A DNA stretch of 64,000 bases from a virus (taxonomy: Duplodnaviria > Heunggongvirae > Uroviricota > Caudoviricetes): IMG/VR virus record IMGVR_UViG_3300046522_000748, one strand, 5' to 3'. The translations under genes and the position numbers were made by a program. Positions 1,915 through 48,820 of this stretch are shown here, one piece after another; positions within the stretch are counted from its first letter, which is position 1; each line of letters opens with the position of its first letter. The notes beneath the pieces were generated by a model, which had not been told where the DNA came from, did not search any database, and was given only the letters and a program-made list of their open reading frames with translations.

Positions 1915-2106
1915 TCAGGCATTATCTTTGGGTGGGTATTGCTTGTTGAAGGCGGCAATCATCGCCTCACTGCCCTTCTCGGCTAGCAATTTTCTCGCCC
2001 CCAACAAAACGGGATCATCGTCCTGGACGACGGAGGGGATCTCAAGCATGGTGTAAGGCCCGCGCTTTACGGCCTTGATCATTGTTTTTGGTTCATTATT
2101 TTCCAT
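1915..2106 (-). CDS. hypothetical protein
   Basis: Start re-assigned to MENNEPK (2106), overlapping the end of the upstream gene. Confidence 0.55.
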   Translation of the reverse strand: MENNEPKTMIKAVKRGPYTMLEIPSVVQDDDPVLLGARKLLAEKGSEAMIAAFNKQYPPKDNA

Positions 2107-2374
2107 AACTGGCCCACGCAGGTTGAATCGCGATGATGGTGTAGTGGCAGCCCAAGGCGTCACCGATGGAGTGTGAAAATGCGCGCCATCCTTTACGGTT
2201 GGAGCCATCGTGATCAGGCTCATCGCCGTAATCGGTTTCTTTCAACCAGATTGTCGCCAGTTGTGCTGCGCCAAAAGGATTGATGTCTCGGCCAAGTGGT
2301 TCTGAATGCCGGTCTTCATGCCAGAGAAAGATCATGGTAGGCACGCCATCGGCGTCCTCAATCAACCGTGTCAT
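2096..2374 (-). CDS. conserved phage/plasmid hypothetical protein, C-terminal part (DYGDEPDHDG...AIQPAWASYGK)
   Basis: Motif recalled from a mobile-element family; possibly the second half of a split gene. Confidence 0.65.
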   Translation of the reverse strand: MTRLIEDADGVPTMIFLWHEDRHSEPLGRDINPFGAAQLATIWLKETDYGDEPDHDGSNRKGWRAFSHSIGDALGCHYTIIAIQPAWASYGK

Positions 2375-2499
2375 CGGGTCTTCTCCTTGAGCTTGGCATA
2401 ACGAACGTGAGCCGCCTTGCCACCCGTCATGGCCAAGCGGATGACCAATTCAAGTTCTTGGTCGCCGATTGAGGTTACATCGATAGAAAGGTTATCCAA
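2371..2499 (-). CDS. 42-aa ORF (MDNLSIDVTSIG...), probable N-terminal part of the same family
   Basis: TTG start after AGGTGG; stop overlaps next start (ATGA); not in ORF track. Confidence 0.45.
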   Translation of the reverse strand: MDNLSIDVTSIGDQELELVIRLAMTGGKAAHVRYAKLKEKTR

Positions 2500-2526
2500 T
2501 GGAGCCACCTGTTCAATGTGAAGAAA

Positions 2527-2556
2527 TAAAAAAAGACCCGTCAGTGCGGGTCTTTT
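2527..2556 (-). terminator. intrinsic terminator of the candidate ncRNA
   Basis: AAAAGACCCG-tcagtg-CGGGTCTTTT hairpin followed by a U-run on the minus strand. Confidence 0.8.
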
Positions 2557-3080
2557 GGTCGAAGCCTTCCCGCCAGCTTCGTATTTTATCTAACATTCAG
2601 TCCTTCAGGCGTCTTAGCGGCTACGCCACCATTGGATCGGCTGTCGTTCTGGTGTCGCGGGTAACTCTGTTCGCGCATAGAGGCTTTGCCGACTCCGGCT
2701 CCGCCTTTGGGTATCGCTACTTGAAGCTGATTAGTGCCTCCGACAACCAAGATTCCGGTCTCTCAGTTGTTTTCGAGCTTCGAATTCCACAGGAACATGT
2801 GGATTTAATTCGACTGGGGCGTGACACGCAACAGGTCGAAACCTGAAGGATCATCTCTCTGCTATCCTGCGCACCTTCGACTCACAGGAGTGTTAGTCCC
2901 TCTGACCGCATTTGCCAGAGCCTATCTGCTAAACACATGGAATCATCCAGGTGTTGCTGGTCTACTAGGTCAGCACAGCGTTGACCTCATTACCACTCCC
3001 AGCCGTCGCCATGGAGTTTACGACCCTTGGCAGGGATTAACGGCAAAACAGCCAGCCATCAACCATCTGTTTCCTGCTTG
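2527..3080 (-). ncRNA. candidate large (~550 nt) structured non-coding RNA
   Basis: Own promoter and terminator, no sense ORF of 60 aa or more in the track, many helices including CAGGU-UUCG-ACCUG and a 9-bp long-range pair 2601-2609/2842-2850. Confidence 0.7.
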
Positions 3081-3086
3081 ACTTAC

Positions 3087-3115
3087 AATATATCGATCAG
3101 AACATCGCCTGTCAA
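3087..3115 (-). promoter_or_regulatory. sigma70 promoter for the candidate ncRNA
   Basis: TTGACA (3115-3110), 17 nt, TATATT (3092-3087). Confidence 0.8.
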
Positions 3116-3128
3116 CGTTTAAAGCTTA

Positions 3129-4388
3129 TTATTTCTCAAAAATCTGAGATAACGTTGCATCGAATAGTGTCAGGACGGTGGCGTGCTGTTCATATGCGCG
3201 GGCACTGACTTGTCCAATCCTAGCGTCCTCGACGGCAAATCCTGGTAGCTGATGAAGGTAGAGATTAATTTTCTCAATTAGACCACTAGAAATCTTATGG
3301 TCAAAGCTTAATTCAGCAAAATTATCAAGAGTGGCATAGCTTCTAAATGCATCGATATCGAGGGTTGCTCCATGAACATCTCGCCTATATACGAGATAGG
3401 AAGTCAGCCCTGACAGAAAACTTGAAACTCTGGACTTCCAAATATAATCAACGTTCTTTTCATCCAGCGCATCCATGAACAAATCGCGTATTTGCAGGGC
3501 CGTTCTGTGTTTCATCCGTGAGCACTCATCCTGTGATTCCTTCGCTCTATTTGGAGTCATAGGAGCGCATTCTGAATCGATATTGTTCAGAGCAGATTCA
3601 ATGTGCTCGTTTAGCTTATGTAATTCGAACGGATTTGCTTTTAGGAAAAATCTGGCCACGTCCAGTTCTGATGAGTTTTTTTGCCTGTAGTTCTTTTCAA
3701 CATGATTGAGCAAATGTGGTTCAAGCTCATTAAAAAATGAACGAGCTGCATCTTGAAAATGGAACATCCATGATTGTTCAAGGGTCCAGCGCATCAGTTC
3801 GTCTTCTTTACACGTTTTATTTCTTGTTACCTGTGACACATAGTTTTGCGCTCTAGCTCCATGCTTGTTATAGGCTTCATTCAAAAGATCCGGATCTAAA
3901 GATTCAAGATAGTTATTAGCTTGAAATGATTCAAAGCTAACACTTCCCTTTAGATAAGGATTAACAATTTCTGTATAGTAAATTTCACTGTCGATTATGT
4001 GATCGAATAGTGTCGGCTGAAGCCCTGGCTTGTTGGTCAACGAGCCGTGATACTTCAAAATCCAATCCTTGATACAGAACCCGATTAGCGGTTTTTTCTT
4101 ACCAAATTCAATATGGGCCATTTTTCGCAAAACCTCAACAAAATAGGCCATGGCTTTACTTGGCTCATGGATATTATCTGGTGATCTCTTATCGAGTTTT
4201 CCCGGCTTGGATTTAAGGGGTATGAAAGAAGCTTTAAACGCTTGCGCAGATTTAAAGCCTTTGTGCTTTGCCATTGCATTGAGGACTTGAGATCCCTTTA
4301 TAGCGGTGCCTTCAGGTAGGTTTTTTGCAACGCCATGAGCCAAAGACGAATAGTCCTCGAAGCTCAGCGTGGAGAGATTGCTTGTCAT
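3129..4388 (-). CDS. fusion protein: N-terminal small helical domain (Glyoxalase_8-like) plus C-terminal DotL/IcmO all-alpha-like domain
   Basis: N-term IKGSQVLNAMAKHKGFKSAQAF; C-term IWKSR..LVYRRD..GATLD..YLHQLPGF..QV..EQH. Confidence 0.75.
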   Translation of the reverse strand: MTSNLSTLSFEDYSSLAHGVAKNLPEGTAIKGSQVLNAMAKHKGFKSAQAFKASFIPLKSKPGKLDKRSPDNIHEPSKAMAYFVEVLRKMAHIEFGKKKPLIGFCIKDWILKYHGSLTNKPGLQPTLFDHIIDSEIYYTEIVNPYLKGSVSFESFQANNYLESLDPDLLNEAYNKHGARAQNYVSQVTRNKTCKEDELMRWTLEQSWMFHFQDAARSFFNELEPHLLNHVEKNYRQKNSSELDVARFFLKANPFELHKLNEHIESALNNIDSECAPMTPNRAKESQDECSRMKHRTALQIRDLFMDALDEKNVDYIWKSRVSSFLSGLTSYLVYRRDVHGATLDIDAFRSYATLDNFAELSFDHKISSGLIEKINLYLHQLPGFAVEDARIGQVSARAYEQHATVLTLFDATLSQIFEK

Positions 4389-4573: not shown

Positions 4574-4927
4574 TTACTTCTTTTCGGGATCACAGAAGCT
4601 GGCAACTTCAATATCATAATCGCCAGTTTTTTCATTTTTAACGATGGACTTCAGATACTGCTGACAGAAAACCGGCCTGTCGTTCTCGGTGGAACGGATT
4701 TTATACAGCTTCAGACGATTTCCGGCCACGTCGCCCTCAATAAAAGAGACGTTATTCAGTGCGGGAGCGCTGTTAATTTCTAGCCCTGGGGTGGCGGGTG
4801 CCAATGCAGGTGTTGCTGCTTGAACTTCAGGTGCCTGTCGGTTCTGATGAGCACAGCCGGATAATATGAGCACCAAAAAAGCTGCGCCGAGGGTTGTGAT
4901 CGATTTTGCGCCGCATAAATTCAACAT
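4574..4927 (-). CDS. putative lipoprotein
   Basis: Hydrophobic signal ending in LSGC lipobox, then Pro/Ala linker. Confidence 0.7.
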   Translation of the reverse strand: MLNLCGAKSITTLGAAFLVLILSGCAHQNRQAPEVQAATPALAPATPGLEINSAPALNNVSFIEGDVAGNRLKLYKIRSTENDRPVFCQQYLKSIVKNEKTGDYDIEVASFCDPEKK

Positions 4928-48703: not shown

Positions 48704-48731
48704 TTGACATCGTTGTTTCTGATAGTAAGAT
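48704..48731 (+). promoter_or_regulatory. tRNA promoter
   Basis: TTGACA-16-TAAGAT just upstream of the tRNA. Confidence 0.7.
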
Positions 48732-48743
48732 TACATTCATTGA

Positions 48744-48820
48744 CGCGGGGTGGAGCAGTCTGGTAGCTCGACGGGCTCATAACCCGTAGGTCGTAGGTTC
48801 AAATCCTGCCCCCGCAACCA
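48744..48820 (+). tRNA. tRNA-fMet (CAT)
   Basis: 77-nt cloverleaf, C1:A72 mismatch, GGG/CCC anticodon stem, CAT anticodon, GTTCAAA T-loop, encoded CCA. Confidence 0.97.

What the first reader, a model, noticed from the sequence alone, without database searches (positions are those of the whole stretch)
2527..3115. Stand-alone ~550-nt structured non-coding RNA gene
Seen: a near-consensus promoter (TTGACA-17-TATATT, 3115-3087) and an intrinsic terminator (2556-2527) bracket ~550 nt with no sense-strand ORF in the track, in a region otherwise packed with genes. The interval is dense in helices (plus-strand text): GAAGC/GCTTC (2561-2580), GGCGT/ACGCC (2608-2627), TCGAATT-CCAC/GTGG-AATTCGA (2780-2813), a UUCG-capped CAGGU/ACCUG hairpin on the transcript (2832-2845), CTCTG/CAGAG (2900-2920), AACAC-TGGA/TCCA-GTGTT (2932-2955), AGGTCA/TGACCT (2967-2987), plus a perfect 9-bp long-range pair TCCTTCAGG (2601-2609) with CCTGAAGGA (2842-2850) that competes with the UUCG hairpin. 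Established: mobile elements carry large ornate RNAs such as ROOL and GOLLD, which are known mainly from Firmicutes and environmental sequences. Inference: a divergent member or a new class of large ncRNA on a likely Pseudomonas-associated replicon. I could not match it by eye to tmRNA, RNase P, SRP or an intron.
Basis: partly seen in the sequence, partly recalled or inferred. Interest (0 to 1): 0.88.

Follow-up and report, generated by a model that had tools for sequence, protein, structure and literature searches.

The report
New large RNA on giant plasmid
This gene-free stretch is a real gene for a folded non-coding RNA of about 550 bases on a giant (1.1-million-base) soil mobile element; it shows up alone and abundantly in four independent soil RNA data sets, matches no catalogued RNA family, and its job is unknown.

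Summary
Confirmed as a stand-alone non-coding RNA gene (minus strand, about 3080 to 2527), with corrections. Promoter and terminator are present and kept in nine related loci (about 85-97% identical); one promoter variant has a replaced spacer but keeps both boxes. In four metatranscriptomes from four studies, contigs cover only 2546-3069 (depth 11-211); one flank contig appears, at depth 2.2. No reading frame survives in relatives. The core changes at 4-5% of sites, against 12-48% at silent sites of neighbouring genes. Twelve pairs show two-sided changes, but from only about three sequence types. Folding energy alone is unremarkable. Rfam, ARAGORN and two models built here find no link to ROOL, GOLLD, tmRNA, RNase P or introns; remote ROOL kinship is not excluded. 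Best reading: a new family that behaves like ROOL (abundant, mobile-element-borne, variable linker); self-assembly through invariant loops is inferred, not shown. The host is unproven. The scan reported other new large phage RNAs but no look-alike on other DNA.

The parts
3087..3115 (-). sigma-70 type promoter (-35 at 3115-3110, -10 at 3092-3087); lacks the palindromic operator that overlaps many other promoters of this replicon
   Evidence: both boxes and the 17-nt spacing are kept in L002/L005 although the spacer and upstream DNA differ
2527..3080 (-). non-coding RNA gene, about 524 nt body plus 30 nt terminator; start inferred near 3080-3079
   Evidence: invariance begins at 3080; RNA contigs cover 2546-3069 only; no conserved ORF
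3030..3077 (-). 5' hairpin: invariant 5-bp base, 8-nt purine-rich bulge, upper stem of variable length
   Evidence: 1 two-sided and 3 one-sided changes, none broken in the 6 pairs counted
2995..3025 (-). bulged hairpin 3017-2995, or an H-type pseudoknot using 3024-3020/3009-3005; the two cannot be told apart
   Evidence: 2 one-sided compatible changes
2900..2987 (-). three consecutive hairpins (2987-2967, 2955-2932, 2920-2900), each with compensatory changes
2733..2890 (-). conserved core: hairpin 2889-2865 (11-nt loop), UUCG-type hairpin 2848-2829, bulged hairpin 2813-2780, hairpin 2770-2743 whose loop holds the palindrome CCGG; proposed closing helix 2820-2816/2741-2736 (invariant, so untested)
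   Evidence: 4-5% substitutions; one-sided changes all compatible in two of the hairpins
2663..2728 (-). variable linker domain: nested covarying helices, entered through an AGUA/GAA-type internal loop
   Evidence: 28-34% substitutions yet 6 two-sided pairs
2615..2631 (-). small variable hairpin
   Evidence: 88% paired in the sequence-based alignment
2557..2581 (-). 3' hairpin (2581-2576/2565-2560) followed by ACCA; its loop (2573-2569) can pair with 2661-2657 as a pseudoknot
   Evidence: 2 one-sided compatible changes in the stem; pseudoknot invariant, -11 kcal/mol, untested
2527..2556 (-). intrinsic terminator, stem invariant, no effective antiterminator
   Evidence: pairing probability 1.0 in five full-length folds
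3129..4388 (-). upstream 419-aa gene of unknown function; not a constant partner
   Evidence: absent in L007-L011, present in L001, L002, L005, L012
2096..2503 (-). downstream gene, 143-146 aa in relatives, split here into 42 + 92 aa by a 28-nt deletion; constant neighbour, partly because it was used to find most loci

Best explanation
A new family of large, stand-alone, trans-acting structured RNA that works like ROOL and GOLLD. SUPPORTED BY DATA: it has its own conserved promoter and terminator, accumulates far above neighbouring mRNAs, codes for no protein, and keeps about ten hairpins, a strongly conserved core and a variable linker domain. INFERRED: host sigma-70 polymerase makes it without the replicon's operator control. 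It folds into a compact pseudoknotted unit. Its invariant loops pair with one another (2880-2875 with 2841-2836; the self-complementary CCGG loop near 2759-2756; 2573-2569 with 2661-2657), within and between copies, to give a stable RNA-only oligomer with a tolerant linker. The particle would act as a scaffold or decoy that favours persistence of the giant replicon. The cellular target is not known.
For: RNA contigs of four studies limited to 2546-3069: a 521-nt contig at depth 211, others at 103, 15 and 11-15. Nine homologues with promoter and terminator kept. Substitutions spread evenly over codon positions (24/25/28) against 7/6/52 in a neighbouring gene; core 4-5% against 12.5-48% at silent sites. 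12 two-sided pairs and 28 cells against 11.6 +/- 2.3 in shuffles. The proposed loop-loop pair accepts both observed changes as G-U or G-C. ROOL precedent: 581 nt on average (PMC5737381); cages with kissing loops and a variable linker (PMC12286853); abundant and stable on a megaplasmid, and deletion lowers plasmid copy number (PMC5643018). The motif AGUAGC before the linker lies at position 360 here and at 365 and 335 in two ROOLs.
Against: No experiment on oligomer state. The large raiA RNA is a monomer and HEARO needs a protein (PMC12286853), so size alone does not imply a cage. All long-range and loop-loop pairs are invariant or one-sided only, and the same segments have several equally good partners. 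Four-base palindromes in loops are common by chance. The homologues fall into about three types, so covariation reflects few events. Contigs give no strand or ends, and the runs were chosen because they hold this stretch. No tRNA island nearby: the only tRNA in the window is 45 kb away.
Confidence: 0.45

Rival explanations
1. A protein-dependent RNA, like OLE: the RNA is the scaffold of a ribonucleoprotein with a partner encoded by the replicon or host, possibly the downstream 143-aa protein.
For: Long invariant unpaired stretches could be protein sites. The downstream gene follows the terminator by about 25 nt in all loci.
Against: The downstream gene is split in this window while the RNA is intact. 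A 35%-identical relative of it (L006) has no RNA beside it. The upstream gene is missing in 5 of 9 loci. Most loci were found through the downstream gene, so linkage is partly by selection.
Confidence: 0.22
2. It is a very divergent ROOL RNA rather than a new family.
For: Similar length. A 5-bp stem with a purine-rich 5' bulge, a run of three hairpins, and an AGUA/GAA loop leading into a variable linker at about two thirds of the length resemble the Rfam ROOL layout.
Against: The ROOL model gives no match at E up to 10, whole or in 230-nt pieces, while true ROOLs score 130 and 358 bits. My models score at most 4 bits inside two ROOLs. I found no long helix joining the two ends, and only 9 nt lie where ROOL has about 27 nt with its closing helix. 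The pairwise test is weak: ROOL against ROOL gave only z = 2.8.
Confidence: 0.13
3. A ribozyme (intron-derived or RNase P-like) acting in trans.
For: A very conserved core of about 160 nt. ORF-less group IIC introns are known to cut nucleic acids (PMC12990946).
Against: No match to intron, RNase P or self-cleaving ribozyme models. A group I P7-like AGUC strand is changed in run X19. A domain-5-like segment is not conserved. It interrupts no gene.
Confidence: 0.08
4. A 5' leader or attenuator that controls the downstream genes.
For: The next gene starts about 25 nt after the terminator with no convincing promoter in between. The loop at 2573-2569 could pair with the terminator's 5' arm. One run has the downstream region at depth 2.2 against 103.
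Against: The alternative pairing is worth -8 to -10 kcal/mol against -20 to -24 for the terminator, which forms with probability 1.0 in five homologues. Simple read-through explains a 2% signal.
Confidence: 0.06
5. A tRNA-like decoy: the 3' hairpin followed by ACCA is released or trimmed and acts as an acceptor-stem mimic.
For: Invariant 6-bp hairpin plus ACCA just before the terminator. Thg1 and a nucleotidyltransferase-like gene lie within 10 kb in relatives.
Against: Noticed after the fact; the last A belongs to the terminator's A run. RNA contigs run on into the terminator, to 2549 and 2546. ARAGORN finds no tRNA or tmRNA.
Confidence: 0.04
6. Not a functional RNA: a conserved intergenic stretch or a decayed or antisense gene.
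For: Folding energy is unremarkable. An antisense ORF of 63-86 aa recurs over the 5' part.
Against: Selective presence in RNA runs, conservation above silent sites, no codon pattern, frame-breaking indels and compensatory changes.
Confidence: 0.02

Closest known systems
ROOL RNA (Rfam RF03087), especially the Ligilactobacillus salivarius megaplasmid copy (PMC5643018)
   Same: Stand-alone RNA of 520-580 nt on a megaplasmid, very abundant, many hairpins, variable linker entered through an AGUA/GAA-type loop at a similar position.
   Different: No model or sequence match; no long helix joining the 5' and 3' ends; core spacing does not fit ROOL's closing helix; has an intrinsic terminator directly after the body; not beside tRNAs; probably a proteobacterial host.
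GOLLD RNA (Rfam RF02032)
   Same: Large RNA of mobile elements with a variable linker; found here twice on a 910-kb Pseudomonas plasmid.
   Different: No match in either direction; GOLLD often exceeds 800 nt and may carry a tRNA in its linker; this RNA carries none.
OLE RNA and raiA motif RNA
   Same: Large, highly conserved, abundant bacterial RNAs of unclear biochemistry.
   Different: No Rfam match; no constant protein partner shown; so far limited to one giant-replicon family.
Plasmid-borne tmRNA (e.g. pMP7017, PMC10832533)
   Same: Highly transcribed RNA gene on a megaplasmid.
   Different: No tRNA-like domain, no conserved tag frame, no ARAGORN or Rfam hit.

Membership tests
ROOL (RF03087) | Covariance-model score at or above 99.1 bits | tested here: not met
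   no match at E up to 10; positive controls 130 and 358 bits
ROOL (RF03087) | Long helix pairing the 5' end with the 3' end | tested here: not met
   the 5' 52 nt form a local covarying hairpin; no conserved end-to-end helix in the enumeration
ROOL (RF03087) | Variable linker closed by a helix next to an AGUA/GAA internal loop | tested here: met
   the motif reads AAUA in L001, L002 and L005
ROOL (RF03087) | Core helix enclosing two hairpins, with the conserved loop-junction kissing pair (bridge B4) | tested here: inconclusive
   spacing does not fit by manual comparison, but the core is too invariant to fix long-range pairs
ROOL / GOLLD | Self-assembly into RNA-only cages | not testable with these tools
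   needs mass photometry or cryo-EM
ROOL / GOLLD | Often near tRNA genes or in prophages | tested here: not met
   only tRNA at 48744; no capsid or other virion family among 61 proteins scanned; this feature is frequent, not universal
GOLLD (RF02032) | Conserved 3' domain matching the model at 150 bits | tested here: not met
   positive control 196 bits; reverse test
tmRNA | tRNA-like domain and conserved tag reading frame | tested here: not met
RNase P RNA | Conserved regions matching Rfam models | tested here: not met
Group I / group II intron | Catalytic core (P7, or domain 5 triad) and exon context | tested here: not met
   no Rfam hit; look-alike segments not conserved; own promoter and terminator
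CsrB/RsmZ-type sponge | Many GGA motifs in hairpin loops | tested here: not met
   12 GGA against 11.9 expected
Riboswitch / attenuator leader | Alternative structure that competes with the terminator | tested here: not met

The most novel reading that the evidence does not exclude
A further, unrelated class of natural RNA-only cage or oligomer, the first tied to megabase-size soil replicons of probably proteobacterial hosts, built with its own loop-loop contacts and serving the maintenance or protection of the replicon.
Probability: 0.3. Interest if true: 0.82.

Novelty: new variant of a known kind. Interest (0 to 1): 0.62.

Why it matters
Only a handful of bacterial non-coding RNA classes exceed 500 nt, and the function of ROOL and GOLLD is an open question. 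PMC12286853 states that it remains to be determined whether cage formation is common among large natural RNAs. A new family that is visibly abundant in soil, peat and paddy RNA offers a direct test with one in vitro transcript. It also marks an uncharacterised family of megabase replicons, most of whose proteins match no known family.

Tried and rejected
No homologue outside the replicon family was found. BLASTN of plasmids and phages: none. Pattern scans of viral, metagenome and genome collections gave nothing or chance seeds that did not extend. 401 genomes of one gammaproteobacterial order and 4 more gave only short chance matches; I could not confirm any of them as Pseudomonas. Five giant Pseudomonas plasmids were negative by BLAST and by both models, without a positive control in that search. 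The best of those hits lies inside a 419-aa reading frame. No whole genome is held. Two ROOL searches failed technically. The chemoreceptor search of plasmids gave no match at 1e-30 and says nothing on the host. Atlas and family searches left both neighbours unexplained. Lack of cover on the flanks in RNA runs is only a weak hint, and no DNA run was laid beside them. In one search I entered the loop-loop helix (helix 9) one base out of register, so its 64% is an error that slightly lowers the totals; the correct register is. The relatives X8, X15, X17 and X19 were rebuilt from the difference tables and may miss changes near contig ends. No protein fold or complex job was sent, since no binding claim is made.

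Full report
Observation. The longest sense ORF is 54 aa. Folding energy is not strong evidence: z = -2.9 with the terminator but -1.6 without, and 5 of 15 control stretches of the window do as well. Relatives give -2.6 and -3.2; a true ROOL gives -1.1, so a modest z is not evidence against either.

Setting. The upstream protein is recorded on a contig of 1,136,521 bases, and the best holders of the DNA are rhizosphere metagenomes. The window carries a chemoreceptor, HipA, Fic, SohB, polyvalent-protein domains and PilI, and no virion family among the proteins scanned. SohB matches Pseudomonas megaplasmids best, at 54%; a nearby 346-aa protein matches Pseudomonas and Xanthomonas plasmids at about 30%. 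A giant plasmid of a proteobacterial host is my inference, not a result. Many promoters of the window carry a palindromic operator; the RNA promoter does not.

Homologues. Neighbour proteins led to nine loci from Logan, JGI and ENA, about 85-97% identical. Invariance begins at 3080. In L002 and L005 the spacer and upstream DNA are replaced, yet both promoter boxes and the 17-nt spacing remain. The 419-aa upstream gene is absent from five loci. The downstream gene is split in this window by a 28-nt deletion.

Not coding. Substitutions fall evenly on the three frame positions (24/25/28 against L001), unlike a neighbouring gene (7/6/52). Indels of 1, 4 and 5 nt occur and no sense ORF is shared. 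The core (2890-2733) differs at 4-5% of sites, the linker (2732-2665) at 28-34%, and four-fold degenerate sites of three neighbours at 12.5, 22 and 48%.

Transcription. Eight of 24 listed holders are RNA runs. In four runs from four studies (two soil, one peat, one rice paddy) the contigs lie at 2549-3069 (521 nt, depth 211), 2578-2977 (103), 2546-3044 (15) and 2591-3054 (11-15). The only other contig covers 1924-2143 at depth 2.2. Contigs give no strand or ends and the runs were picked for holding this stretch, so this is supportive rather than proof. Four studies stopping inside the same promoter-terminator interval is what a discrete abundant RNA predicts.

Structure. RNAalifold finds 12 two-sided pairs. 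A curated structure of 131 pairs is 97.1% paired, with 28 two-sided cells against 11.6 +/- 2.3 in shuffles and at most 5 when slid. That structure was derived from these sequences, which form only about three types, so the figure overstates independence. Local hairpins and the linker domain are supported. Long-range pairs cannot be fixed, because the invariant segments have several possible partners. Candidates are a 6-bp loop-loop pair that tolerates both observed changes, a self-complementary loop and a 3' pseudoknot.

Known families. Rfam gives nothing at the curated cut-offs and only noise at E up to 10, also in 230-nt pieces. ARAGORN finds no tmRNA. Two models built from the family find no second copy in the window and nothing in two ROOLs or two GOLLDs with filters off. 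One likeness to ROOL remains: the AGUA/GAA loop and helix that close a variable linker at a similar position. Pairwise tests are too weak to exclude remote kinship, so I leave that at 13%.

How it most likely works. The closest behaviour is that of the L. salivarius megaplasmid ROOL: constitutive, stable, very abundant, dispensable for growth, with an effect on plasmid copy number (PMC5643018). ROOL and GOLLD form cages through kissing loops, with a variable linker inside (PMC12286853, PMC12990946). This RNA has the same kind of anatomy. I therefore commit to a trans-acting, self-assembling scaffold or decoy at 0.45. My rough odds: real ncRNA 0.95, stand-alone and trans-acting 0.85, new family 0.8; the oligomer step is the weak link. 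An attenuator is unlikely because the terminator has no real competitor.

Verdict. A real and apparently undescribed large RNA family of a known general kind, so far confined to one giant-replicon family. My literature searches found no description of it, but they cover open-access text only. The scan has reported several other new large phage RNAs and no look-alike of this one. Interest 0.62.

Noticed in passing
L018 1501-1906 and 2362-2823 (CP136011.1, 122456-123778): Two tandem GOLLD RNAs (196 and 193 bits) on the 910-kb plasmid of Pseudomonas sp. FeN3W; the second carries a tRNA in its linker.
   Followed up: partly
window 12341, 34166, 36416, 42297, 52041, 54363, 55220, 56464, 62390, 62779: Ten perfect TGTCA-N7-TGACA palindromes, most overlapping the -35 box of strong promoters; a replicon-wide operator, absent from the RNA promoter.
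   Followed up: partly
window 2096-2503: The downstream gene is split by a 28-nt deletion relative to L007 and probably starts at TTG; real or an assembly feature of this sample.
   Followed up: partly
L007 9320-9420: Loci that lack the 419-aa gene keep DNA resembling its 3' end, which suggests loss by deletion.
   Followed up: no
L001 16692-17732; L007 19324-20196: A 346-aa protein with a nucleotidyltransferase-like GDID motif (PHROG 24943; relatives on 63 plasmids) and a Thg1 gene lie within 10 kb of the RNA, hinting at an RNA-end repair region.
   Followed up: partly
window 3129-4388, residues 279-419: Atlas models place this C-terminal part weakly near domains of type IV coupling proteins (TM about 0.3-0.4, low-confidence model).
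   Followed up: no
run X15, window 2591-2936: One contig has L001-type changes in the core but a window-type linker, suggesting recombination between RNA variants.
   Followed up: no
window 48744-48820: A single tRNA with a CAT anticodon, with a TTGACA promoter-like site at 48704.
   Followed up: no
window 4574-4927: The 117-aa gene, upstream of the RNA in the window and in eight of the nine loci, has a lipoprotein-type signal (LSGC).
   Followed up: no
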